Shown in pieces: positions 4,898 to 42,231 of a stretch of 64,000 nt of DNA. The stretch covers positions 19,350-83,349 of the forward strand of contig QKHC01000114.1 of NCBI GenBank assembly GCA_003251175.1, read 5' to 3'. Origin of the DNA: Gemmatimonadota bacterium (GTDB lineage Bacteria > Gemmatimonadota > Gemmatimonadetes > Gemmatimonadales > GWC2-71-9). The translations under genes and the position numbers were made by a program. The notes below the pieces were generated by a model. It was given only the letters and a program-made list of their open reading frames with translations, was not told the DNA's origin and searched no databases. How positions within the stretch are numbered: the stretch's first letter is position 1; every line of letters starts with the position of its first letter.

Positions 4898-5005
4898 CAC
4901 GCTGTGCAACAGGCGGTTACGAAATGGAACACGTTCTTGCCTTCCCTCCCGCGGCGTGGGTAGCATTCCCGCCACTCACGACTGCGAATGCATGGAGGTA
5001 GGGGG

Positions 5006-5653
5006 ATGACCCGCAAGCCTATCGGCTTGCTGGCTGCCGGCGTCGCGCTGGCCGCCAGCCTGTCTTGCTATCCCGGTGATGTGCAGAGTCTTCAGGAGCT
5101 GGACCTCTCCGTCGCCATCCGCAACCCGAACGTGCCGGAGAGCGAGTTCGCGAACATCGTGACCTACGCACTCCCGGACACCATCATCCACGTGTACCCG
5201 GATACGACGGATACGAATCCACCCGAGATCTCGCGGGACTACGACTCGTACATCCTGGGTCTCGTCGTCAGCCACATCGACGCACGGGGGTACCAGCGCG
5301 TCGCGGTCGATCCGGCCAACCCGCCCGACGTACTCGTGCTGGTCACGGCAACAGCGCGCACGATGACCGGTGCCACCTGGTATCCCGGATACTGGTGGGG
5401 CGGCTACTGGCCGCCGTGGGGGCCCTGCTACTACTGCTACTATCCGCCGCCTGTCACCGTGTATCAGTGGGACCAGGGTTCGTTGCAGATCACGCTGGTC
5501 GATCCGAGCGTGGCGTCGGACAGCACCATCAGGGCCCTGTGGATGGGCGGCGTGACCGGAGTGCTCGGTTCCTCCGGCAACGCCACCAGCAGCCGGTTGG
5601 AGACGGGCATCAACCGCGTGTTCGACCTGTCCCCATACCTGCGCCGCAACTAG
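5006..5653 (+). CDS. lipoprotein, DUF4136-like
   Basis: SD GGAGGT sits 6 nt before ATG 5006. Lipobox is LAASLSC. The C-terminal part (GSLQITLVD..) resembles DUF4136. Contains an unusual aromatic/Pro run GYWWGGYWPPWGPCYYCYYPPP. Confidence 0.65.
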   Translation: MTRKPIGLLAAGVALAASLSCYPGDVQSLQELDLSVAIRNPNVPESEFANIVTYALPDTIIHVYPDTTDTNPPEISRDYDSYILGLVVSHIDARGYQRVAVDPANPPDVLVLVTATARTMTGATWYPGYWWGGYWPPWGPCYYCYYPPPVTVYQWDQGSLQITLVDPSVASDSTIRALWMGGVTGVLGSSGNATSSRLETGINRVFDLSPYLRRN

Positions 5654-5683: not shown

Positions 5684-6274
5684 ATGCGCATACTCTTTTC
5701 CGCGGCGCTCGCCCTGGCTCTGAGCGGTCAGGTCGCGGCGCAGACGTTCGGGCGCCTCTATTACAGCACCGCCGCTCCGAGCGGCGACATGAAGGACTAC
5801 ATCGACCAGTTCAGCTGGCGCGGCATCACGTTCGAGTCCGGGAAGTATGTCCGGGACAACGTGACGGCGGCGATTTCACTCGGTTGGACAGTGTTCAACA
5901 AGAAGACCGACGAGCCGGTGAGCATCGGCGACGCGGCGGCGGCGCAGGGCACCCAGTACCGTTATGTCAACGCGTTTCCCATCCTCGCGCAGCTGCAACT
6001 GCATCGTCAGCCCAATCGCGGCGCCGACATGTACCTCGGCCTGAACGGAGGCGTGTACTACATCGAGCGGCGCACCGACGTCAGCGTCGTGTCGCTCGTG
6101 TCGGACAACTGGCATTTCGGGCTGGCCCCGCAGGCCGGCATCATCTTCCCCATGGACTACGGCCGCAGCGCGGGATCGATTGACGTCCGGTACAACCACG
6201 CGTTCGAGGCCGGCGGTCAGTCCTACAGCTGGTGGACGTTCAGCATCGGGTTCGCCTACGGCCGGCTGTATTAG
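5684..6274 (+). CDS. outer-membrane beta-barrel protein
   Basis: Signal peptide MRILFSAALALALSGQVAAQ, alternating beta-strand pattern, aromatic C-terminus ..FSIGFAYGRLY. Confidence 0.7.
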   Translation: MRILFSAALALALSGQVAAQTFGRLYYSTAAPSGDMKDYIDQFSWRGITFESGKYVRDNVTAAISLGWTVFNKKTDEPVSIGDAAAAQGTQYRYVNAFPILAQLQLHRQPNRGADMYLGLNGGVYYIERRTDVSVVSLVSDNWHFGLAPQAGIIFPMDYGRSAGSIDVRYNHAFEAGGQSYSWWTFSIGFAYGRLY

Positions 6275-27782: not shown

Positions 27783-28301
27783 ATGACCGACCCGAAGGCT
27801 GTAATCGCTCTCACCGTCAATGGCGAGCCGGTCGAAGTGGCCTTCGCGCCGCACAAGACACTGCTCGAAGTGCTGCGCGAGGACCTGGGGCTCACCGGTA
27901 CGAAGCACGGTTGCGAGCTGGGGGAGTGCGGCACCTGCGCGGTGCTGGTGGACGGGAAGCCGGTGCTGTCCTGCCTGGTGCTGGGGTTGACCTGCGCCGG
28001 TCGGCAGGTGCGCACCGTCGAAGGAATGGTGCGGGACGGCCAGCTGCACCCGCTTCAGGCGGCCTTCGCGGACCTGGGTGCGGCACAGTGCGGCTACTGC
28101 ACACCCGGCTTTCTGTTGACGGCCGAGGCGTTGCTCGCGACCGACCCCGCCCCGACCCGGGAGCGGATCAAGGAGGCGCTCGCCGGCAACCTCTGCCGGT
28201 GCACGGGCTACCTCAAGATCTACGAGGCGGTCGAGCTGGCCGCCGCCCGGATGCGGGGCGAGGACGCCGAGCCGGCACCGGAGACGCTGTATGGCAACTG
28301 A
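27783..28301 (+). CDS. molybdenum hydroxylase small subunit, [2Fe-2S]-binding (CoxS/XdhC-iron-sulfur type)
   Basis: GCELGECGTCAVLVDGKPVLSC and QCGYCTPGFLL..NLCRCTGY are the two Fe-S cluster motifs. Confidence 0.9.
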   Translation: MTDPKAVIALTVNGEPVEVAFAPHKTLLEVLREDLGLTGTKHGCELGECGTCAVLVDGKPVLSCLVLGLTCAGRQVRTVEGMVRDGQLHPLQAAFADLGAAQCGYCTPGFLLTAEALLATDPAPTRERIKEALAGNLCRCTGYLKIYEAVELAAARMRGEDAEPAPETLYGN

Positions 28302-30816
28302 CGGGCGGTCAGGCGGTCAGGCGGTCGAGCGGTCGAGCGCCGGAGAGGCGACCGCCGGTCCGCCTGTCCGCCCACCCGCCGTCATCGGCAAAGCGCTCCG
28401 CAAAGTTGACGCGGTGGCCAAGGTCACCGGTCGCACACGGTTCGCGGACGACCTGTCGCTTCCGCGGATGCTCTACTGCAGGCTGCTGCGCAGCCCGCAT
28501 CCGCACGCCGAGATCGCGCGCGTGGACGTCTCGCGGGCGCTCGTGGCCGACGGGGTGCGGGCAGTCATCACCGGGCGCGACCTGCCCATTCCCTTCGGCA
28601 TCCTCCCTGTGAGCCAGGACGAGCACGCCCTCTGCCCGGATCGTGTCCGTTTCGTCGGCGATCCGGTGGCGGCTGTCGCGGCGACGTCGGAGGAGGCGGC
28701 CACGGCCGCGCTCGATCTGGTTGCGGTCGACTACCGGGTGCTGCCGGCCATCGCCTCCCCCGCCGAAGCCGTCGCCACACCCGAGCCCCGAATTCACGAC
28801 TACGGCGACGACGGCAACCTGCACAAACTGATCGACCTCGAGTTCGGAACCGTGGACGAGGGATTCGCGCAGGCGGATGCCGTGCGCGAAGATCTCTTCT
28901 TCTTTGGCGGCAACACTCACCTGCCCATGGAGCAGCACGCCGCCCTGGCGGAGTGGTCGCCGGACGGCAAGCTGACGATCTGGTCCTCGACCCAAACGCC
29001 GCACTACCTCCATCGGGCGCTCGCCAAGGTGCTGGAGCTGCCGCCCGCCAGGATCCGGGTGGTCGCCACGCCGAATGGCGGCGGCTTCGGCGGCAAGAGT
29101 GATCCATTCAACCACGAGATCGTGGTCGCGAAGCTCGCCATGATGACGGGCCGGCCGGTCAAGATCACCCTGACCCGCGAAGAGGTGTTCTACTGCCATC
29201 GCGGGCGTCATCCGACACTGATGTGGGTCCGGACCGGCGTGAAGCGAGACGGCGCGATCACCGCGATGCACTTCAAGTCACTGCTCGACGGTGGCGGGTA
29301 CGGCTCCTATGGCGTGGCGAGCACCTACTACACGGGAGCCCTTCAGACAGTCACCTACCAGGTGCCCCGCTATCGGTTCCAGGGTGCCCGGGCGTTCACC
29401 AACAAGCCCCCGTGTGGGCCGAAGCGCGGACACGGCACGCCGCAGCCCCGCTTCGCGCTCGAAGTTCAGATCGACAAGCTCGCCGAGCAGCTGGGACTCG
29501 ATCCGGCCGAGATGCGGCTCAGGCACCTCCAGCCTCCCAATGGGGTCACCGCCAACTGGCTGCGGATCGGCTCGATGGGCCTGGGACCCTGTATCGAGCG
29601 CGTTGTGGCGGGCTCGGACTGGAAGTCACGATTCCGCCAGCTGCCCGAGGGCCGCGGACTCGGCCTCGCCTGCTCATCGTACATCTCCGGGGCGGGACTG
29701 CCGATCTACTGGAACAACATGCCGCACTCGGGCGTGCAACTGAAGTGCGATCGCGGTGGGGGGGTCACCGTATTCTGCGGCTCCACTGAGATCGGCCAGG
29801 GGTCCGACTCGGTGCTCGCCTACATCGTGGCGGAGGTGCTGGGCCTCGATCCGTTCGACGTCACCGTGGTCACCGCCGACACCGATCTGACCCCCGTCGA
29901 CCTGGGCTCCTACTCGAGCCGGGTGACGCTGATGACTGGTAATGCGGCGCTGCAGGCAGCGGAACGCGCGCGGGAAGTCATCACGGCAGCGGTCGCCCGC
30001 AAGCTGCAGCTGCCGACGCCACGCATCGTCTTCGCCGCCGGGCGTGTCTTCGACACGCAGGCCCCCGACGCCGGCATGTCGTTCGCCGAGGCCGTGCAGC
30101 TGGCGGAGGCCGCCGGCGGGACGGTGGGGACCGTCGGTTCGTATACGCCACCCCGCAGTCCCGGTCGCTACCGGGGAGCTGGCGTGGGACCCTCGCCCGC
30201 GTACTCCTACAGCGCGTGCGTCGCCGAGGTCACCGTGGATCCGGCCACCGGTATCGTCGCCGTCCCCAAGGTCTGGATCGCTCATGACATCGGACGCTCG
30301 ATCAACGCGGCAGCCGTGATGGGCCAGGTGGAAGGGTCCATCTACATGGGACTGGGCGAAGCGCTCATGGAAGAGATGGTGCACCGCGACCATGAGCGGC
30401 GTCTGGTGCACAAGTGGCCCAGCCTGCTCGAGTACAAGAGTCCGACAACGCTCGAAATGTGCGATGTGGTGACGTACCTGGTCGAGGACCCCGATCCCAA
30501 TGGCCCGTTTGGAGCCAAGGAAGTGGGCCAGGGTCCCCTGCTGCCGGTCATGCCGGCGGTGGCGAACGCCGTCTACGACGCCGTCGGGGTGCGGGTGGAC
30601 GAAGTCCCCATCACACCGGAGAAGGTCCTGAGGGCGCTGAAACGGAAGGCCAAGGGAGAAGACCCGCGGGTCGGGCCCGCCGGATTCCCTGACATCCGCT
30701 GGCCGGAGCCCACGCGCGTGCCGACCCCCTGGGAGGGCGGTGACGGCAAGGCGCTGGGGCAGACCACGAAGTCGGAGACGACTACCGCGAAAGTCCGGCC
30801 CGAGCGACAACACTGA
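28291..30816 (+). CDS. molybdenum hydroxylase large subunit, molybdopterin-binding (CoxL/XDH family); substrate unknown
   Basis: GKALRKVDAVAKVTGRTRFADD, the Ald_Xan_dh_C-type core, GGGFGGKS and GEALMEEM. ATG 28291 overlaps the small-subunit end by 11 nt. Confidence 0.9.
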   Translation: MATDGRSGGQAVERSSAGEATAGPPVRPPAVIGKALRKVDAVAKVTGRTRFADDLSLPRMLYCRLLRSPHPHAEIARVDVSRALVADGVRAVITGRDLPIPFGILPVSQDEHALCPDRVRFVGDPVAAVAATSEEAATAALDLVAVDYRVLPAIASPAEAVATPEPRIHDYGDDGNLHKLIDLEFGTVDEGFAQADAVREDLFFFGGNTHLPMEQHAALAEWSPDGKLTIWSSTQTPHYLHRALAKVLELPPARIRVVATPNGGGFGGKSDPFNHEIVVAKLAMMTGRPVKITLTREEVFYCHRGRHPTLMWVRTGVKRDGAITAMHFKSLLDGGGYGSYGVASTYYTGALQTVTYQVPRYRFQGARAFTNKPPCGPKRGHGTPQPRFALEVQIDKLAEQLGLDPAEMRLRHLQPPNGVTANWLRIGSMGLGPCIERVVAGSDWKSRFRQLPEGRGLGLACSSYISGAGLPIYWNNMPHSGVQLKCDRGGGVTVFCGSTEIGQGSDSVLAYIVAEVLGLDPFDVTVVTADTDLTPVDLGSYSSRVTLMTGNAALQAAERAREVITAAVARKLQLPTPRIVFAAGRVFDTQAPDAGMSFAEAVQLAEAAGGTVGTVGSYTPPRSPGRYRGAGVGPSPAYSYSACVAEVTVDPATGIVAVPKVWIAHDIGRSINAAAVMGQVEGSIYMGLGEALMEEMVHRDHERRLVHKWPSLLEYKSPTTLEMCDVVTYLVEDPDPNGPFGAKEVGQGPLLPVMPAVANAVYDAVGVRVDEVPITPEKVLRALKRKAKGEDPRVGPAGFPDIRWPEPTRVPTPWEGGDGKALGQTTKSETTTAKVRPERQH
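28304..28335 (+). repeat. octanucleotide tandem repeat, 4 units: GGCGGTCA GGCGGTCA GGCGGTCG AGCGGTCG
   Basis: Read directly. It lies 13 nt into the large-subunit ORF, immediately after the small-subunit stop. It shares the 14-mer GGGCGGTCAGGCGG with the repeat at 36065-36094. Confidence 0.8.
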
Positions 30817-32623: not shown

Positions 32624-33177
32624 ATGCCCGAAGCCGATATCACCCAGATGCTGCTCGAGCTCTCCGGTGGGAACCGCGAGGCGATGGATCGGCTGCTGCC
32701 CGCCATCTATGAGCAACTGCGGGGGATGGCGCGGCGAGAGTTGCGACGCGAGCGGCCGGGGCACACGCTGACCCCGACGGGGCTGGTGCATGAAGCATAT
32801 CTCAAGCTCGTACAGCTGGAGCGGGTGGACTGGCGGGGCCGGGCGCACTTCTTCGGCGCGTGCGCGCAGGAGATGCGTCGCGTTCTCATCAGCCACGCAC
32901 GGAAGAAAAAGGCGGACAAGCGCGGCGGGGGGGTAAGCCCGGTGACGCTCGACAACGTTTTGGTCGCCGCCGAGTCCCGTCCCCAGGAACTGCTCGCCCT
33001 GGACGAGGCACTCGTCAAGCTCGAGGCGTTGAGCAAACGGCAGGCGAGGATCGTGGAGTGTCGGTTCTTCGCCGGCATGAGCGTCGAGGAGACGGCGGCG
33101 GCCCTCGAGATCTCCCCTGCGACGGTGAAACGGGAGTGGACGGCGGCCAGGGCGTGGCTGAACCGGGAACTGACCAC

Positions 33178-33181
<4 letters not shown>
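32624..33181 (+). CDS. ECF sigma factor of the kinase-associated type (TIGR02999/ECF43-like)
   Basis: DITQMLLELSGGNREAMDRLLPAIYEQLRGMARRELRRERPGHTLTPTGLVHEAYLKL is the hallmark N-terminus of this ECF group. Region 4 is ..RIVECRFFAGMSVEETAAALEISPATVKREW. Confidence 0.85.
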
Positions 33182-35871
<2,690 letters not shown>

Positions 35872-35880
35872 GGTTCCCAT

Positions 35881-36891
35881 ATGCTGCGCTTGCCCACCTT
35901 CCGCTACCGCGAGCCGCGCACCCTCGCCGACGCCCTCCGCATGAAGACCGACGCGGGAACCGATGGCATGTACGTCGCCGGCGGGACGGATCTCTATCCC
36001 AACATGAAGCGGCGGCACCAGGAGCCGAGGACCGTGATCTCGTTGATGGGGATCGCGGAGCTGCGGGCGGTCGGGCGGTCGGGCGGTCAGGCGGGCGGCG
36101 CCGTGGTCGGGGCGGGAATCACGCTCACCGACTTGACCGCCTGTGCGCCGGTCCGCCTGACCGCCCCTGTTGTCGTCCAGGCCGCGGAGCTCGTCTCCAC
36201 CCCCCTGCTCCGCAACATGGGCACGCTGGGCGGCAATCTCTGCCTCGACACGCGGTGCAACTACTACAACCAGAACTACGAGTGGCGGAAGGCGATCGAC
36301 TTCTGCATGAAGAAGGACGGCGCGATCTGCTGGGTCGCGCCGTCGTCACCGCGCTGCTGGGCCGTGTCGTCGACCGACGTGGCGCCGGTCATGGTGGCGA
36401 TCGGCGCGGAGTATCGCCTGGTCGGCCCGCAGGGCGAGCGGGTCGTCCCGGCCGGGCGGTTCTATCACAATGACGGGATCAACTATCTCACCAAGCAGCC
36501 CGACGAAGTCCTGGTGGACGTCCGCCTGCCCGCTCCGAACGGCTGGAACGCCGTGTATCACAAGCTGCGGCGGCGGGGCGCGTTCGATTTTCCGGTGCTC
36601 GGGGTGGCGGCGTGGGTGAAGTGGGAGCAGGGAGCAGGGAGTGTGGAGCGGGTGGTGCGCGAGGCGCGCATCGTGCTGGGTGGCGTCGCGAGCTATCCGC
36701 AGGATGTGCCCGAGGCGGGGGCGGCGCTCGTCGGCACCCGCCTCGAGGATGACGCGATCGCGGCCGCGGCGGAGGCCGCCTACCGGCCCGCGAAGCCGAT
36801 GGACAACACGGACTTCGAGTTGTCGTGGAGAAAGCAGATGACGCGGGTGTACGTGACGCGTGCGCTGACGGACCTGCGCGTGCGCCGATGA
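35881..36891 (+). CDS. molybdenum hydroxylase medium subunit, FAD-binding (CoxM type)
   Basis: FRYREPRTLADAL..AGGTDLYPNMK, GTLGGNL and the CO_deh_flav_C-like C-terminus. Starts 9 nt after the kinase stop. Confidence 0.85.
   Translation: MLRLPTFRYREPRTLADALRMKTDAGTDGMYVAGGTDLYPNMKRRHQEPRTVISLMGIAELRAVGRSGGQAGGAVVGAGITLTDLTACAPVRLTAPVVVQAAELVSTPLLRNMGTLGGNLCLDTRCNYYNQNYEWRKAIDFCMKKDGAICWVAPSSPRCWAVSSTDVAPVMVAIGAEYRLVGPQGERVVPAGRFYHNDGINYLTKQPDEVLVDVRLPAPNGWNAVYHKLRRRGAFDFPVLGVAAWVKWEQGAGSVERVVREARIVLGGVASYPQDVPEAGAALVGTRLEDDAIAAAAEAAYRPAKPMDNTDFELSWRKQMTRVYVTRALTDLRVRR
36065..36088 (+). repeat. octanucleotide tandem repeat: 3 perfect units of GGGCGGTC, plus a degenerate 4th unit to 36096
   Basis: Read directly inside the FAD-subunit ORF (encodes ..VGRSGGQAGG..). 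Shares the 14-mer GGGCGGTCAGGCGG with 28303-28316. Confidence 0.8.
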
Positions 36892-38379: not shown

Positions 38380-39318
38380 CTACGCCAGCAGGCTCCGTGC
38401 GATGAACCATAGGTTCGCGGGCCGCTCGGCGAGGCGCCGCAGGTACCACGCGAACCAGGCGCTGCCGTAGCTGATGAGCACCCGCGCGCGATGCCCGCGG
38501 CCCACCAGGCGCCGCAGGTCCTCATTGCGCACCCCATACAGCATGTGCACCTCCCAACCGTCGCGCGGTACGCCCAGCGTGCCCGCCGCCCCCTGGATCC
38601 GCTCGATCAGCGCGAGGTCGTGGGTGCCGCACACCAACCGCACGGGCTGGCCCGCGGCCCGCGCCTCGAGCAGGGTCCGCGCCAGGGCGAAGTACTGGAG
38701 GTCCACCGCCCGCTTCTGGGGGTAGGCGATCGTTCGCGGCTCGGCGTAGGCACCCTTCACGAGCCGGATCGTCGGGTGCAGCGGCAGCAATTCGCCGAGA
38801 TCCTGCGGGGTGCGGCGCAGGTACGCCTGGAGCGCGAGCCCGACGCGCGGGATCCGCGCTTGGACCTTGCGGAAGATCGCGATGGTCACGTCGGTGTAGA
38901 CCGATCCCTCCATATCGATCCACAGGGTCGTGTTGCGTTGCGCCGCATGCGCGGCGAGCTCCAGGGTCAGGGTCTCGCAGGCATCCCGCCGAATATCGAG
39001 GCCCAGGTGGGTGAGCTTGATCGACGGCTCGGCGTCGAGACCACGCCGTGCCGATTCGTCGATTGCGGCGCGATAGCCGGCGGCGACCTGCTCGGCCTGC
39101 GGCAGTGTCGTCACGTTCTCACCGAGTTCTGTGAGCACCGCGCCGATCCCGCCCTGCGCGAGACGCCCCGCGGCGTCGAGGGCCTCGGCCAAGGTTTCCC
39201 CCGGCAAGAACTTCCGCACGGCGCGGCGCGCGAACGGCCAGGTGGGGGCTCGACGGGCCAGCCAGCTGGATTGGGAGGCGCGGAGCAGCAGCGATCGCAA
39301 TGGGTTCATACCGATCAA
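38380..39318 (-). CDS. proline dehydrogenase (monofunctional PutA-type)
   Basis: FLPGETLEALDA, SIKLTHLGL, VWIDME and LQAYLRRT..VRLVKGAY are family motifs. Position 39318 is a TTG; ATG 39309 is an equally good start. Confidence 0.85.
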   Translation of the reverse strand: MIGMNPLRSLLLRASQSSWLARRAPTWPFARRAVRKFLPGETLAEALDAAGRLAQGGIGAVLTELGENVTTLPQAEQVAAGYRAAIDESARRGLDAEPSIKLTHLGLDIRRDACETLTLELAAHAAQRNTTLWIDMEGSVYTDVTIAIFRKVQARIPRVGLALQAYLRRTPQDLGELLPLHPTIRLVKGAYAEPRTIAYPQKRAVDLQYFALARTLLEARAAGQPVRLVCGTHDLALIERIQGAAGTLGVPRDGWEVHMLYGVRNEDLRRLVGRGHRARVLISYGSAWFAWYLRRLAERPANLWFIARSLLA

Positions 39319-39410
39319 GGCTCCACGCTGGCGGGCCGGCCGTCAAGGACGGCCGATGCGAAGCCGCCCCCCGGGCCGTAGATTCCCGGCAACGGCTAAG
39401 GGAGCAGTCG

Positions 39411-39998
39411 ATGCGTAATCTCCTGAGCACGGTGATCGGATCTGCGGCCATACTCGCGGGCGGTGTGACAGCGCAGCAGGCGAGTCCCGACACGGCTCCA
39501 CCGCTCGAGGTGGGCGCGCCGGCGCCGGAGTTCGCGCTCCCCGCCGCCACGCGCTGGGGAATCCTGAGGAATCCGCTCCGTTTGTCCGATTACCGAGGTA
39601 AAACCGTCGTGCTGGCGTTCTTCTTCCGCGCGCGGACCCCTGGCTGAACGATCCAGATGGAGGCGTACCGTGATCAGTACGCCACGCTGTTTCACGGGGG
39701 CCGCGACGTGGTGCTGATCGCGATCAGCGCCGATCCGGTCGAGGCGTTGCAGTCGTGGGCGCGCGACGCCGAATTCCCGTTCGTGATGGCGAGCGATTCC
39801 GCCACGGCGGTGGGTCGCACGTACGGCGCGCTGGCCCGGCGGCCTGGCATGACCAACCGCAACCTGTTCGTGGTCGGCCCCGACGGCCGCATCGCGTACC
39901 GGGCCGTTCCGTTCCGCGAGACGGACCCGACGGCCTACGAAGAGCTGGGCGCGGCGATCGACCAACTGGTGCCGGCGCCGGGGGATGGCGGGCCCTAG
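39411..39998 (+). CDS. secreted AhpC/TSA (Bcp/PrxQ-like) peroxiredoxin with in-frame TGA (39645-39647) at the peroxidatic-Cys position: candidate selenoprotein, or nonsense pseudogene
   Basis: SD AAGGGAG precedes ATG 39411. Signal peptide is MRNLLSTVIGSAAILAGGVTAQ. Peptide reads APAPEFALP..LSDYRGKTVVLAFFFRARTPG[TGA]TIQMEAYRDQY..VVLIAISADP..FPFVMASD. ORFs 39300..39647 and 39657..39998 are in the same frame, separated only by TGA plus 3 codons. Confidence 0.7.
39662..39683 (+). promoter_or_regulatory. hairpin 14 nt downstream of the in-frame TGA (candidate bacterial SECIS element)
   Basis: GGCGTAC-cgtgatca-GTACGCC: 7 perfect base pairs with an 8-nt loop that has G at its second position. The loop starts 21 nt after the TGA. 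Confidence 0.4.
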
Positions 39999-41004
39999 CC
40001 TCCCGCGATCGGTCGCGCGGCGCGTGGCTGCAGCGCGATTCGCGCTGGGGCTGACCCTCGCGGCACTCGGTCCCCCAGCGGTCGGTGCGCAGCGCGTTGT
40101 GGAGGAGTACCGCCCCACGCCCGGTCTCCTCCCGATCGGCCCCGGCCCCAGCGACGCAATCGCGCTGACCGACAAGGGCTATACGCTGCGGCTCCCGGGC
40201 GACGGCGACACCCTGCGCGGCGTCGTCGTGCTGATCGACCCGCGGCGGCCGGCGGACACACCTCCCGACTCCGCCAGCTTCGACGCCCACGCGCTGGTAC
40301 GTGGCGTGGCCGTGCTCCACATCACGACGGGCAATCCGCTCGACTTTCTGTTCGCGGACGACAGCGTCGCACACCTCGCCGAGCGTATCCAGGTCGTACT
40401 CGCGCAGCACGGCGCGCGGGAAGTTCCGGTGTACGTCGCCGGCATGTCGCTCGGCGGTACACGCGCGCTGCGACTCGCCGTCTTCCTGGCCCGGCATCCG
40501 GATGCGTACTGGTTGCGGCTCTCGGCGGTGGCGGTCGTGGACGCGCCCCTCGACATGGCGCGCCTCTGGGACGCCGAACGCCGCGCCATCGTCGCGGACT
40601 TCCATCCCAGCGCCGCGGGCGAGGGCCGATGGGTCACCTACATGCTCGAACGGGCCCTCGGCGGGCCGCCGGCCACCCACGCTGCGCGCTACGCTGCGTA
40701 CTCGCCCTTCACGCATGCCGAGCCAGATGGCGGCAACGCCCGGCACCTCGTCCGGCTGCCGCTGCGCGCCTACCATGAGCCCGATGTGGATTGGTGGATC
40801 GAGCATCGCCGCAAGGACTACTATGCGATGAACTCGCTCGACCTGGCGGCGCTGATCAACCAGCTCCGCCTGCTGGGAAGCACCACCGCCGAGCTGATCA
40901 CCACGCATCGACAGCGCGCCGGAGTGGATGCCGGATCCTCCCCGCACACCTGGTCCATCGTCGACGACCGTGAGCTCGTAGGGTGGTTTGTCCGTTGGCC
41001 CTGA
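39985..41004 (+). CDS. secreted alpha/beta-hydrolase-fold protein (esterase-like)
   Basis: Signal-like N-terminus ..FALGLTLAALGPPAVGAQ. Nucleophile-elbow-like motif VAGMSLGG. Overlaps the peroxiredoxin end by 14 nt. Confidence 0.6.
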   Translation: MAGPSLPRSVARRVAAARFALGLTLAALGPPAVGAQRVVEEYRPTPGLLPIGPGPSDAIALTDKGYTLRLPGDGDTLRGVVVLIDPRRPADTPPDSASFDAHALVRGVAVLHITTGNPLDFLFADDSVAHLAERIQVVLAQHGAREVPVYVAGMSLGGTRALRLAVFLARHPDAYWLRLSAVAVVDAPLDMARLWDAERRAIVADFHPSAAGEGRWVTYMLERALGGPPATHAARYAAYSPFTHAEPDGGNARHLVRLPLRAYHEPDVDWWIEHRRKDYYAMNSLDLAALINQLRLLGSTTAELITTHRQRAGVDAGSSPHTWSIVDDRELVGWFVRWP

Positions 41005-41011
41005 CGACCGG

Positions 41012-41539
41012 CTAGGGCCCGGAGTCGACCACGCGCTCCAGTGCCGACTCGAGATCCTGGTCGCTCCCCACGCCGGTGTACACCACGCGTCCGGCGGCGT
41101 CGAGCACGACCACGTACGACGTCGTCAGCGCGTCGAAGGCGCGGACCGCCCTGCCGCGGGTATCCCACAGCACTACAAACGGCATCGGGTGCTTCTCGAG
41201 GTACCGCCTGATCGAGCGCTGCGACTGATTCACGGCGACCGCGATGACCACGAACGCTACCCTGTCGCGGAACCGCTGGTGAGCCGCCTCCATCCGAGGG
41301 AACAACCCGGCGCAGTTGGGACACCACGTAGCCCAGAATTCGAACAGGACCGGTTGTTTTCCGATCCATTGTCCGAGATCCACGGTGTCGCCGTCGAGGT
41401 TTTCGATGGTGACGGGCGACGGCACCGACCCAATCGGAAGGCCGACATCCTGTGCTCGCAGCGCCTCGGCGCCCAGGGCGACCAACCCGGTCAGCGCCAG
41501 CGCCGCCCAGCGGCCCCGCGCCATGGATTGCCAACTCAT
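41012..41539 (-). CDS. TlpA/ResA-like periplasmic thiol:disulfide oxidoreductase
   Basis: Signal peptide, then PVLFEFWATWCPNCAGLFP (thioredoxin fold, WCxxC). ATG 41539 overlaps the ccdA stop (ATGA). Confidence 0.85.
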   Translation of the reverse strand: MSWQSMARGRWAALALTGLVALGAEALRAQDVGLPIGSVPSPVTIENLDGDTVDLGQWIGKQPVLFEFWATWCPNCAGLFPRMEAAHQRFRDRVAFVVIAVAVNQSQRSIRRYLEKHPMPFVVLWDTRGRAVRAFDALTTSYVVVLDAAGRVVYTGVGSDQDLESALERVVDSGP

Positions 41540-42231
41540 CGCACCGTCCATGCCTGCCACACATAGTATGCGGCCATGATCAGCAGCAGGGTGCCGCCGG
41601 CGCGCTGGACGCGGACCATCCACGAACCCGCGCGCGGCAGCCGCGTCACCACGCCGGACGAGATTCCCACGGCGAGCAGCAGCGTGGTCATACCCAGCGA
41701 GAAGGCCAGCAGGTACACAAATCCCCAGCCAGCCGAGCGTGTTGTCGCCACCCATGTGAGCACCGCTGCAAACGCAGGCGCACCACATGGTGCCGCGACG
41801 ATCCCCGACGTTGCCCCCAGCAGCAGCGCAGCTGCAATGGAGCCGCCCCGCAACCCCGCCGCCCATCGAGCCAAGCTGGCTGGCACCGGGACGGACACCA
41901 CGTCGAGCATTGCGAGCCCGAAGACGGCGAGCAACCCCGCGATCGCGAGTCGTGCCCACCAGCTCGATCCCACCGTGCCGAACAGCGAGCCGGTGAGTCC
42001 CGCGAGCAAACCGAGCAGTGCGTACAGGAATGCGAGCCCGAGCACATACACGAGCGCGAGGACCACCACCCGTCGTCGTGACTGCTTCGCGTCCGCCGTT
42101 CCCGAGAGCAGGCCGATGGTGATGGGGATCATCGGGTACACACACGGGCTGAGACTCGTCACCACCCCCGCGCCGTAGAGCGCGACGATCGCGGAGACCG
42201 GATGCTGTGGCAACGCATCACCGAGCACCAT
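41536..42231 (-). CDS. ccdA: cytochrome c biogenesis / thiol-reductant transfer protein CcdA (DsbD family)
   Basis: GVVTSLSPCVYPMIPITIG and GIVAAPCGAPAFAAVL are the two conserved Cys-containing motifs. Six TM segments. Confidence 0.85.
   Translation of the reverse strand: MVLGDALPQHPVSAIVALYGAGVVTSLSPCVYPMIPITIGLLSGTADAKQSRRRVVVLALVYVLGLAFLYALLGLLAGLTGSLFGTVGSSWWARLAIAGLLAVFGLAMLDVVSVPVPASLARWAAGLRGGSIAAALLLGATSGIVAAPCGAPAFAAVLTWVATTRSAGWGFVYLLAFSLGMTTLLLAVGISSGVVTRLPRAGSWMVRVQRAGGTLLLIMAAYYVWQAWTVR

What the first reader, a model, noticed from the sequence alone, without database searches (positions are those of the whole stretch)
39411..39998. Peroxiredoxin with an in-frame TGA exactly at the catalytic cysteine codon, followed by a hairpin: candidate selenocysteine peroxiredoxin
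ORFs 39300..39647 and 39657..39998 are in the same frame. Joined, they give one full-length secreted AhpC/Bcp-type peroxiredoxin. The only interruption is TGA 39645-39647, and it falls where every family member has the peroxidatic Cys. The consensus is ..VVL.F(Y/F)P...TPGCT.E...(Y/F)RD.., and here the sequence reads ..VVLAFFFRARTPG-TGA-TIQMEAYRD..

Fourteen nt after the TGA, a perfect 7-bp stem forms with an 8-nt loop (GGCGTAC cgtgatca GTACGCC, 39662-39683). The loop begins 21 nt after the UGA and has G in its second position. As far as I recall, this fits the loose bacterial SECIS model (upper stem-loop 16-37 nt from the UGA, G early in the loop).

Sec-for-Cys replacement at the peroxidatic residue is established for a few anaerobe peroxiredoxins (for example PrxU of Eubacterium acidaminophilum). 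The gene would be mis-annotated as two fragments or as a pseudogene by standard pipelines. No second Cys lies at +5, so it would be a 1-Cys/1-Sec type. The alternative is a simple TGC-to-TGA nonsense mutation.
Basis: partly seen in the sequence, partly recalled or inferred. Interest (0 to 1): 0.8.

Follow-up and report, generated by a model that had tools for sequence, protein, structure and literature searches.

The report
Secreted selenocysteine peroxiredoxin of Gemmatimonadota
The apparent stop codon inside this peroxide-detoxifying enzyme gene is almost certainly read as selenocysteine, because about 160 related Gemmatimonadota genes keep the same codon and the same RNA hairpin, yet public annotations split the gene into two fragments.

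Summary
Window 39411-39998 (+) is one reading frame for a 195-residue, signal-peptide-bearing BCP/PrxQ-type peroxiredoxin. Its only interruption is TGA 39645-39647, which sits exactly at the peroxidatic-Cys column. A 7-bp/8-nt-loop hairpin follows at 39662-39683.

The Sec interpretation is strongly supported:
- All 78 readable species-level Gemmatimonadota genome loci, and 78 of 80 metagenome loci, carry TGA here. This holds down to 57% protein identity, with both halves intact.
- Across 159 unique genes the hairpin codons are almost frozen at synonymous sites (0.08 bit, against 1.16 bit at other conserved residues).
- The seventh base pair covaries through two wobble positions (C-G 60, U-A 51, G-C 32).
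- All four published bacterial SECIS constraints are met.
- Cys-type homologues relax these codons and lose the stem.

The main gap is that selA/B/C/D could not be examined. None lies in the window, and the rest of the genome was out of reach.

Sec-peroxiredoxins are a known selenoprotein family. This clade is only 33% identical to the known Sec-Bcp, matches no NCBIfam model, and is annotated everywhere as two fragments. It also replaces the canonical Pro of PxxxTxxC with Phe/Tyr, while Cys relatives keep Pro. This Sec/aromatic versus Cys/Pro pairing recurs in several lineages.

The parts
39398..39404 (+). Shine-Dalgarno-like AAGGGAG, 6 nt upstream of the ATG
   Evidence: Read directly from the sequence. 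Inferred function.
39411..39998 (+). Complete selenoperoxiredoxin gene: 195 codons including UGA-Sec79, terminal TAG
   Evidence: Single frame. Pfam AhpC-TSA 95.5 bits. PDB BCP/PrxQ/AhpE hits with E down to 1e-11. Both halves are intact and conserved in 150 complete related loci.
39411..39473 (+). Predicted Sec-type signal peptide (MRNLLSTVIGSAAILAGGVTA | QQ)
   Evidence: Judged by inspection only: basic N-terminus, hydrophobic core, small residues at -3/-1. Homologues have equivalent N-termini. No signal-peptide predictor was available.
39624..39626 (+). Phe72 codon (TTC), in the position of the conserved Pro of the peroxiredoxin PxxxTxxC motif
   Evidence: Alignment to 2ywn. In 159 unique Sec forms this residue is F 112, Y 44, P 2, S 1. 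In the aligned Cys forms it is P in 80 of 83.
39636..39638 (+). Thr76 codon, the conserved active-site Thr (TxxU)
   Evidence: Alignments. T in 95% of Sec forms.
39645..39647 (+). In-frame UGA read as selenocysteine 79, the peroxidatic residue
   Evidence: Aligned to Cp of solved peroxiredoxins and to TGC of Cys-type homologues. TGA in 167 of 169 related loci.
39662..39683 (+). SECIS hairpin: 7-bp stem (39662-39668 / 39677-39683) and 8-nt loop CGUGAUCA (39669-39676), embedded in codons E84-A91
   Evidence: -11.8 kcal/mol, z = -3.2. RNAalifold predicts the same helix. Six pairs are invariant in 159 sequences. The seventh covaries: C-G 60, U-A 51, G-C 32. Codon entropy is 0.08 bit against 1.16 bit elsewhere. 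It meets the bSECIS constraints quoted in PMC13188914.
39858..39860 (+). Arg150 codon, the conserved active-site Arg of peroxiredoxins
   Evidence: Aligned with the Arg of 2ywn and of WP_011365628.1.
41012..41539 (-). TlpA/ResA-like periplasmic thioredoxin (WCPNC motif, signal peptide), candidate reductant of the enzyme
   Evidence: Pfam Redoxin, AhpC-TSA, Thioredoxin and Thioredoxin_8. A convergent homologue lies directly downstream of the Sec-Prx in 31 of 62 genome loci and next to Cys forms. The functional link is inferred.
41536..42231 (-). CcdA/DsbD-type transmembrane electron transporter, overlapping the TlpA-like gene by 4 nt
   Evidence: Pfam DsbD_TM, E = 3e-40. It co-occurs with the TlpA-like gene in 31 of 62 loci. 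The functional link is inferred.

Best explanation
The gene encodes an exported, 1-Sec peroxiredoxin of the BCP/PrxQ type.

**Proposed mechanism**
1. Translation starts at ATG 39411.
2. When UGA 39645-39647 reaches the ribosomal A site, the hairpin 39662-39683 acts as a bacterial SECIS. It recruits SelB-GTP-Sec-tRNA(Sec), and selenocysteine is inserted as residue 79. This hairpin is formed by the codons for E84-A-Y-R-D-Q-Y-A91.
3. The signal peptide takes the protein to the periplasm.
4. There the selenolate of Sec79, assisted by Thr76 and Arg150, reduces peroxides and becomes a selenenic acid.
5. No resolving Cys exists. The enzyme is most likely recycled by the neighbouring TlpA-like periplasmic thioredoxin, which is kept reduced by the CcdA/DsbD membrane electron shuttle.

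**Shown here**
- Conservation of the UGA at the catalytic column.
- Purifying selection on both halves of the gene.
- Nucleotide-level conservation and covariation of the hairpin.
- Fit to the bSECIS model.
- Loss of the hairpin in Cys forms.
- Synteny with the TlpA-like and CcdA genes.

**Inferred**
- Presence of SelA/B/C/D in the genome.
- Actual selenium incorporation.
- Export to the periplasm.
- Identity of the reductant.
- The functional meaning of the Pro-to-Phe/Tyr replacement at residue 72.
For: **The stop sits on the catalytic residue**
- The TGA aligns to the peroxidatic Cys of solved peroxiredoxins and lies in an AhpC-TSA domain.

**The TGA is conserved across the phylum**
- Close relatives in the protein database (80-96% identity) are all called as 110-113-aa C-terminal fragments starting MEAYRDQ. 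Their DNA has the same TGA.
- A scan of GTDB species-representative genomes gave 80 loci. All are Gemmatimonadota MAGs except two records labelled only 'uncultured bacterium' (L053, L071) and one 1.5-kb contig from a 'Phycisphaerae' bin (L078). TGA is present in 78 of the 78 that are readable, down to 57% identity.
- A metagenome scan seeded with Cys-type proteins still returned 78 TGA against 2 TGC.
- In 150 complete loci both halves are open. The downstream part is 105-130 codons long.
- Synonymous/non-synonymous codon differences are 2649/2247 upstream and 4783/4383 downstream of the TGA.

**The hairpin is constrained at the RNA level**
- In 159 unique genes the hairpin codons are GCG 159, TAC 159, CGT 150 / CGG 9, GAT 155 / GAC 4, CAG 159, TAC 159.
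- Ala, Arg and Gln codons elsewhere in the gene vary freely. Mean codon entropy is 0.08 bit against 1.16 bit, with a minimum of 0.36 bit, at 55 other conserved residues.
- The closing pair covaries through two wobble positions, with 143 of 159 paired in three Watson-Crick types.
- 0 of 500 shuffles reach the observed covariation, and slid controls collapse.
- RNAalifold recovers the helix independently.

**It fits the published bSECIS model (PMC13188914 Fig. 2 legend)**
- Loop of 3-9 nt: 8 nt here.
- Stem of 4-16 bp: 7 bp here.
- G in the first two loop positions, followed by G or U: C-G-U, with the only variant being C-G-G.
- 16-37 nt from the UGA to the loop: 21 nt here.
- MFE of -7.5 kcal/mol or lower: -11.8 kcal/mol.

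**Cys forms lose the constraint**
- They use TAT, CGC, CGG and GAC, and most lose the 3' arm.
- Two apparently recent Cys forms (L171, L184) keep a relic of the stem.

**TGA is not reassigned genome-wide**
- TGA is the ordinary stop of at least 12 confident genes in the window.

**Reductant**
- Convergent TlpA-like and CcdA genes lie immediately downstream in 31 of 62 genome loci. In the window they are separated from the gene by one inserted ORF.
Against: - No selA, selB, selD or tRNA-Sec gene was found in the window. None was found in 1.44 Mb of related loci either.
- The rest of the genome could not be searched, so the Sec machinery is assumed, not shown.
- I found no literature reporting Sec use in Gemmatimonadota.
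- A recent review states that aerobic bacteria rarely retain selenoproteins.
- Single-sequence folding of a 66-nt context is no better than shuffles.
- The loop is 8 nt, one more than the 'most common' loop pattern in the bSECIS model allows.
- No second selenoprotein gene was seen in the window or the related loci.
- The signal peptide and the redox partner are predictions only.
Confidence: 0.9

Rival explanations
1. SelB-independent or non-Sec recoding. The conserved UGA would be decoded as Cys or another amino acid, for example by a tRNA-Sec-like Cys-accepting tRNA, an allo-tRNA with a UCA anticodon, or hairpin-stimulated near-cognate read-through.
For: The Sec machinery was not demonstrated. 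Sec-tRNA-like tRNAs that insert Cys at UGA have been described in some bacteria; this rests on my own recollection of the literature and was not checked here. The phylum is mostly known as aerobic, where Sec is said to be rare.
Against: The hairpin satisfies every bSECIS constraint, including the G[G|U] loop signature that SelB-binding elements share. Frequent replacement of the UGA by Cys codons, followed by hairpin decay, is the classical Sec/Cys exchange pattern. If Cys were inserted there would be little reason to maintain a costly UGA plus hairpin across a phylum.
Confidence: 0.05
2. Split protein. Translation terminates at the UGA and restarts at AUG 39657, giving a 78-aa secreted peptide and a 113-aa cytoplasmic fragment. 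The hairpin would modulate the restart.
For: An ATG (Met83) lies 9 nt after the TGA in 158 of 159 genes, and gene callers use it.
Against: Met83 is equally conserved in uninterrupted Cys forms (CTIQM), so it is a protein-level constraint. A split would delete the catalytic residue and put the two halves of one thioredoxin fold into different compartments. No Shine-Dalgarno sequence precedes 39657. The stop sits exactly on the Cys column.
Confidence: 0.02
3. Pseudogene: a TGC-to-TGA nonsense mutation in a decaying peroxiredoxin gene, with a chance hairpin.
For: A single nucleotide separates TGA from TGC. The AYRDQYA peptide, which Cys forms also have, tends to encode part of the stem by codon bias alone (L171).
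Against: The same TGA occurs in 167 of 169 loci from at least 78 species, with intact flanking ORFs, purifying selection on both sides, frozen synonymous sites and a compensatory base pair.
Confidence: 0.01
4. Genome-wide reassignment of TGA to a sense codon (as in genetic codes 4 or 25).
For: One JGI product (P0004) shows Trp at the site.
Against: That Trp is a TGA mis-translated by the pipeline; the DNA reads TGA. TGA ends at least 12 confident genes in the window and 61 of the related peroxiredoxin genes themselves.
Confidence: 0.005

Closest known systems
Sec-containing Bcp-type peroxiredoxin, the 'Prx' selenoprotein family (PF00578/COG1225, TxxU). Its representative is WP_011365628.1, as listed in the deep-Sep supplement and in PMC13188914.
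   Same: Same fold and subfamily. Sec replaces the peroxidatic Cys in a T-P-G-U-T context. It is also a 1-Sec enzyme, with the SECIS inside the coding region directly after the UGA.
   Different: Only 33% identity over 133 residues. The known protein keeps the canonical Pro (FYPKDSTPGUT) and has no signal peptide. The window protein has FFFRARTPGUT and an N-terminal signal peptide, and belongs to Gemmatimonadota. I found no literature reporting selenoproteins in that phylum.
PrxU of Eubacterium acidaminophilum (NCBIfam NF040737 peroxi_PrxU; Sohling et al. 2001, cited in PMC13188914)
   Same: An experimentally established peroxiredoxin with Sec at the peroxidatic position.
   Different: PrxU is a typical AhpC/Prx1-like protein from an anaerobic Firmicute, with the motif FYPGDFTFVU. 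The window protein scores 56.9 bits against a cutoff of 270, so it is not an equivalog.
Cys-type paralogues/orthologues in Gemmatimonadota (for example P0001, P0006, P0071, annotated 'peroxiredoxin Q/BCP')
   Same: Up to 74% identical to the window protein, and 89% to other Sec forms. They have the same signal peptide, length and AYRDQY helix, and often the same TlpA-like/CcdA neighbours.
   Different: They carry TGC instead of TGA, and Pro instead of Phe/Tyr seven residues upstream. Their codons in the hairpin region are relaxed, and the stem is lost or only a relic.
E. coli fdhF-type bacterial SECIS / bSECISearch consensus
   Same: A stem-loop just 3' of the UGA inside the ORF, with G followed by U or G at the start of a small apical loop. 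Spacing and stability are within the model.
   Different: No sequence similarity to the fdhF element. The loop is 8 nt with no bulged U, and no conserved lower stem was found. No Rfam family matches.

Membership tests
Peroxiredoxin (AhpC/TSA, BCP/PrxQ subfamily) | Thioredoxin-fold AhpC-TSA domain | tested here: met
   Pfam PF00578, 95.5 bits against a cutoff of 26, covering positions 1-123 of 124. PDB BCP/PrxQ/AhpE hits with E = 1e-11 to 1e-9.
Peroxiredoxin (AhpC/TSA, BCP/PrxQ subfamily) | Peroxidatic Cys (or Sec) in the PxxxTxxC motif: the Cys/Sec and Thr positions | tested here: met
   UGA79 aligns with Cp, and Thr76 with the motif Thr.
Peroxiredoxin (AhpC/TSA, BCP/PrxQ subfamily) | Conserved Pro of PxxxTxxC | tested here: not met
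   Phe72 occupies this position. Across Sec forms the residue is F 112, Y 44, P 2, S 1. Cys forms keep Pro.
Peroxiredoxin (AhpC/TSA, BCP/PrxQ subfamily) | Conserved active-site Arg | tested here: met
   Arg150 (TNRNLFVV) aligns with the Arg of 2ywn and WP_011365628.1.
Peroxiredoxin (AhpC/TSA, BCP/PrxQ subfamily) | Peroxidase activity | not testable with these tools
   Requires enzymology.
Bacterial SECIS/SelB-dependent selenoprotein | In-frame UGA aligned with a redox Cys in homologues and conserved among orthologues | tested here: met
   167 TGA and 2 TGC among 169 loci. TGC occurs in the Cys forms at the same column.
Bacterial SECIS/SelB-dependent selenoprotein | Coding conservation continues downstream of the UGA | tested here: met
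   The downstream ORF of 105-130 codons is intact in 166 loci. Identity to the window is 58-98%, with a synonymous:non-synonymous ratio like that of the upstream half.
Bacterial SECIS/SelB-dependent selenoprotein | bSECIS element (loop 3-9 nt, stem 4-16 bp, G in the first two loop positions, 16-37 nt from the UGA, MFE of -7.5 kcal/mol or lower) | tested here: met
   8-nt loop CGUGAUCA, 7 bp, 21 nt, -11.8 kcal/mol. Conserved and covarying.
Bacterial SECIS/SelB-dependent selenoprotein | selA, selB, selC (tRNA-Sec) and selD present in the same genome | not testable with these tools
   None in the 64-kb window or in 1.44 Mb of related loci. The tblastn queries were E. coli sequences recalled from memory. 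The remainder of the genomes could not be fetched because the collection scans were exhausted.
Bacterial SECIS/SelB-dependent selenoprotein | Selenium actually incorporated at the UGA | not testable with these tools
   Needs 75Se labelling or mass spectrometry.
PrxU equivalog (NCBIfam NF040737) | Score above the curated cutoff | tested here: not met
   56.9 bits against a cutoff of 270. No NCBIfam model reaches its cutoff.
Known Sec-Bcp 'Prx' selenoprotein family (PxxxTxxU) | PxxxTxxU motif and close sequence similarity to known members | tested here: inconclusive
   TxxU is met, Pro is not met, and identity to WP_011365628.1 is 33%. Same superfamily, distinct clade.

The most novel reading that the evidence does not exclude
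In this clade the choice of Sec or Cys at the catalytic position may be functionally tied to the residue that replaces the 'invariant' active-site Pro.

- Sec goes with Phe/Tyr (156 of 159). Cys goes with Pro (80 of 83).
- At least five or six Cys+Pro lineages have a Sec+Phe form as their nearest relative.
- Intermediates exist: Cys+Phe with an intact SECIS relic, Sec+Ser, and Sec+Pro.

If this pairing reflects chemistry, it would be an unrecognised design rule for selenoenzymes. One possibility is that an aromatic side chain shields or tunes the selenolate/selenenic acid, as Trp does in glutathione peroxidase. It would also make the clade a natural mutational series for the long-standing 'why selenium' question.

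A further implication is that an abundant, largely aerobic soil phylum depends on selenium for periplasmic peroxide defence.
Probability: 0.35. Interest if true: 0.65.

Novelty: new variant of a known kind. Interest (0 to 1): 0.5.

Why it matters
**Annotation.** A conserved gene in at least 78 Gemmatimonadota species, and in many soil metagenomes, is systematically split into 78-aa and 113-aa fragments or translated with Trp. No NCBIfam model captures it. A dedicated model would repair hundreds of records.

**Biology.** I found no report of selenocysteine use in Gemmatimonadota, a ubiquitous soil phylum. The finding also runs against the generalisation that aerobes rarely keep selenoproteins. 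It predicts that selenium supply influences their oxidative-stress tolerance.

**Mechanism.** The clade offers many natural Sec/Cys pairs with a coupled Pro-to-aromatic exchange, and a SECIS written into a conserved helix. This is convenient material for testing what Sec buys a thiol peroxidase, and how SECIS elements arise and decay.

**What is not new.** The basic phenomenon, a Sec-containing peroxiredoxin, is already established.

Tried and rejected
- **Single-sequence folding.** Folding 39645-39710 gave z = 0.11 and a competing fold. It was uninformative, so I replaced it with comparative analysis.
- **Rfam.** The gathering scan of the window found nothing. No bacterial SECIS family matches.
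- **tRNA-Sec.** ARAGORN found no tRNA in the window. The first 60 genome loci hold only ordinary tRNAs.
- **Sel genes.** tblastn with E. coli SelA/SelB/SelD sequences recalled from memory found no hit in the window or in any of the 180 held sequences. This says nothing about the rest of the genomes.
- **Remaining large protein searches.**
- **Literature.** I searched for selenoproteins or sel genes in Gemmatimonadota and found nothing relevant.
- **Second selenoprotein.** I scanned the window and all loci for other in-frame TGA candidates. Only adjacent genes and antisense artefacts turned up.
- **Lower SECIS stem.** The lower stem seen in the 46-nt fold of the window has no conserved or covarying pairs across the family.
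- **Leu or Trp at the site.** Database proteins with Leu or Trp there looked like counter-examples. The Trp is a TGA mis-translated by the pipeline. The one Leu form whose DNA was checked (P0003) is a TTA in a 1.6x-coverage contig with an intact hairpin. The second Leu form (P0009) was not checked.
- **Structure prediction.** Not run, because the tool returns no coordinates and so could not show the geometry of Phe72 relative to Sec79.
- **Promoter/terminator scan.** Nothing useful.
Full report
**1. The observation**

Window 39411-39998 (+) translates in one frame. It has a single internal stop, TGA 39645-39647, and a terminal TAG.

With Cys placed at the stop, the 195-residue product matches Pfam AhpC-TSA (95.5 bits, cutoff 26) and Redoxin. 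It also matches solved BCP/PrxQ/AhpE peroxiredoxins (E down to 1e-11). The stop falls exactly on the peroxidatic Cys...VVLAFFFRARTPG-*-TIQM... aligns with 2ywn ...VVLAFYPAAFTQV-C-TKEM....

The active-site Thr (T76) and Arg (R150) are present. The protein contains no Cys at all.

- 5' arm GGCGTAC, 39662-39668.
- Loop CGTGATCA, 39669-39676.
- 3' arm GTACGCC, 39677-39683.
- The stem starts 14 nt after the TGA.

As an isolated 27-mer it folds at -11.8 kcal/mol (z = -3.2, 0 of 200 shuffles as good). In a 66-nt context the MFE is no better than shuffles and adopts another fold. Single-sequence folding alone would not have settled anything.

**2. Comparative evidence for the UGA**

*Protein database.* The search returned full-length Cys-containing homologues at no more than 74% identity. 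The closer relatives (80-96% identity) are all 110-113-residue fragments that start at the Met just after the stop. Their contigs show an upstream ORF ending 10 nt before each fragment. The DNA has the same TGA.

*Species-representative genomes.* The scan returned 80 loci. All but three are labelled Gemmatimonadota MAGs (Gemmatimonadales, Gemmatimonadaceae, Longimicrobiales, Palauibacterales). Two are labelled only 'uncultured bacterium', and a 1.5-kb contig from a 'Phycisphaerae' bin looks mis-binned. In all 78 loci where the position is readable the codon is TGA, at protein identities from 82% down to 57%.

*Metagenomes.* A scan seeded with an alignment of Cys-type proteins still gave 78 TGA against 2 TGC.

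*Gene integrity.*
- In 150 complete loci both halves are open.
- The downstream half is 105-130 codons long and ends with TAG, TGA or TAA.
- Counts of synonymous and non-synonymous codon differences are similar on the two sides of the UGA: 2649/2247 upstream and 4783/4383 downstream.

*Stop-codon usage.* TGA is the ordinary stop of at least 12 confident genes in the window, so the code is not reassigned.

*Caveat.* The scans rank by similarity to the query and use peptide patterns. The Sec:Cys ratio is therefore not an unbiased census.

A pseudogene is excluded.

**3. Comparative evidence for the hairpin**

In 159 unique Sec-type genes the codons forming the hairpin are nearly frozen:

| Residue | Codon usage |
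|---|---|
| A85 | GCG 159/159 |
| Y86 | TAC 159/159 |
| R87 | CGT 150, CGG 9 |
| D88 | GAT 155, GAC 4 |
| Q89 | CAG 159/159 |
| Y90 | TAC 159/159 |

Ala, Arg, Gln and Asp codons elsewhere in the same genes vary freely. Q82, for example, is CAA 107 / CAG 52. Mean codon entropy is 0.08 bit in the hairpin, against 1.16 bit (minimum 0.36) at 55 other positions with a conserved amino acid.

Six base pairs never vary. The seventh pair is formed by the wobble base of codon 84 and the wobble base of Ala91, and it covaries:
- C-G 60, U-A 51, G-C 32, A.A 13, other 3.
- For example, AAC/CAC/GAC goes with GCG, AAT/CAT with GCA, and GAG/CGG with GCC.

On a 48-sequence alignment, 0 of 500 shuffles reach the observed covariation, and slid controls collapse. 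RNAalifold predicts exactly this helix.

The element meets all four constraints of the published bacterial SECIS model, as quoted in the Fig. 2 legend of PMC13188914:
- Loop of 3-9 nt: 8 nt here.
- Stem of 4-16 bp: 7 bp here.
- G within the first two loop positions, typically followed by G or U: C-G-U here, and the only variant seen is C-G-G.
- 16-37 nt between the UGA and the loop: 21 nt here.
- MFE of -7.5 kcal/mol or lower: -11.8 kcal/mol here.

No conserved lower stem was found.

**4. Control: the Cys forms**

DNA of Cys-type homologues shows TGC at the site (L106, L112, L171, L173, L175, L177). The same AYRDQY peptide is encoded with relaxed codons (TAT, CGC, CGG, GAC). The 3' arm is usually destroyed.

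Two Cys forms look like recent conversions:
- L171 is 89% identical to a Sec form and keeps a 6-bp relic with CGC in the loop.
- L184 (P0117) has TGC followed by the intact SECIS core GCGTACCGTGATCAGTACGC.

The nucleotide constraint is therefore specific to UGA-bearing genes. Because every Sec form shares the identical SECIS core, the Sec state most likely arose once and reverted to Cys several times. This direction is an inference.

**5. An unexpected correlate**

The residue seven positions before the catalytic one is the Pro of the PxxxTxxC motif. The review cited above gives the Sec version as a 'highly conserved PxxxTxxU'.

| Form | Residue at U/C minus 7 |
|---|---|
| Sec forms (159 unique) | Phe 112, Tyr 44, Pro 2, Ser 1 |
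| Cys forms (83 aligned) | Pro 80 |

Evidence that the pairing recurs independently:
- On a crude NJ tree there are about nine Sec/Cys changes. Nearly every Cys clade has Pro, with a few single-sequence exceptions.
- Independently of the tree, six Cys+Pro lineages are closer to a Sec+Phe form than to any Cys form outside their own group. P0001 is 0.89 against 0.73 and P0006 is 0.83 against 0.74. P0040, P0092, P0048 and P0071 behave the same way.
- Apparent intermediates exist: Cys+Phe (P0117), Cys+Tyr (P0046), Sec+Pro (L009, L054) and Sec+Ser (L034).

Phe or Tyr to Pro needs two nucleotide changes, so repeated recovery of Pro implies selection.

I do not know the reason. An aromatic side chain tuning or shielding the selenolate or selenenic acid is a hypothesis only.

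**6. Context and likely mechanism**

*Start and export.* The gene has a Shine-Dalgarno-like AAGGGAG at 39398-39404. The N-terminus looks like a Sec-type signal peptide (MRNLLSTVIGSAAILAGGVTA|QQ). This is by inspection; homologues are similar.

*Neighbours in the window.*
- A 339-aa ORF with no Pfam match (39985-41004) lies downstream and overlaps the stop by 14 nt.
- Next, on the opposite strand, come a TlpA/ResA-like thioredoxin (41012-41539, WCPNC) and a CcdA/DsbD_TM protein (41536-42231).

*Neighbours elsewhere.* This convergent TlpA-like + CcdA pair lies immediately after the peroxiredoxin in 31 of 62 genome loci with enough flank. It also lies beside Cys forms.

*Proposed pathway (inferred).* Electrons flow from cytoplasmic thioredoxin to CcdA, then to the TlpA-like protein, then to the selenenic acid of the exported 1-Sec peroxiredoxin.

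*Rest of the window.* It is ordinary chromosome: proline dehydrogenase, LeuRS, SerA, aminotransferases, a xanthine-dehydrogenase-family enzyme, a Ser/Thr kinase, an ECF sigma factor.

**7. What could not be shown**

- No selA, selB, selD or tRNA-Sec is present in the window or in the 1.44 Mb of related loci.
- No other selenoprotein candidate was found nearby.
- Literature searches found no statement about selenocysteine in Gemmatimonadota.

The existence of the machinery is therefore inferred from the conservation pattern. No other known mechanism explains that pattern as well.

**8. Comparison with what is known**

Sec-containing peroxiredoxins are an established selenoprotein family. PrxU of E. 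acidaminophilum is one example. A Bcp-type 'Prx' family (PF00578/COG1225, TxxU) ranks among the top bacterial selenoprotein families.

The window protein works like these, but it is not a close member:
- It is 33% identical to the Bcp-type representative WP_011365628.1, which keeps FYPKDSTPGUT and has no signal peptide.
- It scores 56.9 bits against a cutoff of 270 for the PrxU equivalog, and passes no NCBIfam cutoff.
- No full-length Sec-form product exists in the 5.8-billion-protein collection. Only fragments are present, plus one product with TGA translated as Trp and two products with Leu at the site, one of which was confirmed as a TTA variant.
- An identical copy of the gene is called as 78-aa and 113-aa pieces by JGI, and the NCBI record (GCA_975969335.1) carries the 113-aa fragment.

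**9. Verdict**

- It is a real, phylum-wide, un-annotated selenoprotein gene of a known kind.
- It forms a distinct clade that is exported and has no Pro in the active-site motif, with Sec/aromatic and Cys/Pro pairing that recurs.
- Interest is moderate (0.5). The core phenomenon is known. The phylum, the scale of the mis-annotation and the coupled active-site substitution are new and testable.

Noticed in passing
window 39985-41004 (+): A 339-aa ORF whose start overlaps the peroxiredoxin stop by 14 nt. It has no Pfam family, a signal-peptide-like N-terminus and a GMSLGG (GxSxG) motif suggesting a secreted alpha/beta-hydrolase. It sits between the Sec-Prx and the TlpA/CcdA pair here, but is found downstream of the Prx in only 1 of 62 other genome loci.
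   Followed up: partly
L179 (JGI 3300075618, protein P0004): The public product has Trp at the Sec position, but the DNA reads TGA and the tool reports 'translates to query: no'. The annotation pipeline apparently used a TGA=Trp table for this contig. P0081 shows the same pattern and was not checked.
   Followed up: yes
L178 (ENA ERZ15664656, protein P0003): TTA (Leu) in place of TGA, with the SECIS hairpin fully intact, on a contig with 1.6x coverage. This is either a sequencing error or a rare inactive allele. P0009 also has Leu and was not checked.
   Followed up: partly
L184 1246-1818 (protein P0117): A Cys form (TGC) that still has Phe at the Pro position and the exact SECIS core GCGTACCGTGATCAGTACGC. 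It looks like a very recent Sec-to-Cys conversion.
   Followed up: yes
L013 (CAVRRH010000009.1), upstream of position 1205: The in-frame open stretch upstream of the TGA is only 35 codons, against a median of 106. This is probably a frameshift or assembly error in this MAG, not a different gene structure.
   Followed up: no
L078 (JACMML010000384.1, 'Phycisphaerae bacterium' bin): A 1.5-kb contig in a Planctomycetota bin carries this otherwise Gemmatimonadota-restricted gene, cut at its 5' end. It is likely mis-binned.
   Followed up: no
window 39669-39676 and all related loci: The conserved SECIS loop CGTGATCA contains the palindrome TGATCA (with GATC), and the stem arms contain GTAC. The whole element is a near-palindrome at the DNA level. 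I do not know whether this matters, for example for methylation or RNA dimerisation.
   Followed up: no
window 27783-30816 (+) and 35881-36891 (+): Subunits of a xanthine-dehydrogenase-family molybdenum hydroxylase: 2Fe-2S, a/b-hammerhead plus MoCo-binding, and a separate FAD-binding/CO_deh_flav_C subunit. The two sets are about 5 kb apart, with several genes between them, including a 1003-aa Ser/Thr kinase-TPR protein (32860-35871). Some enzymes of this family use a labile selenium cofactor; nothing here shows that this one does.
   Followed up: no
window 4988-5653 and 5684-6274 (+): Two high-GC3 ORFs in the same frame, separated by a single TAG. The second begins with its own signal peptide (MRILFSAALALALSGQVAAQ), so these are most likely two adjacent genes and not an interrupted one.
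   Followed up: partly
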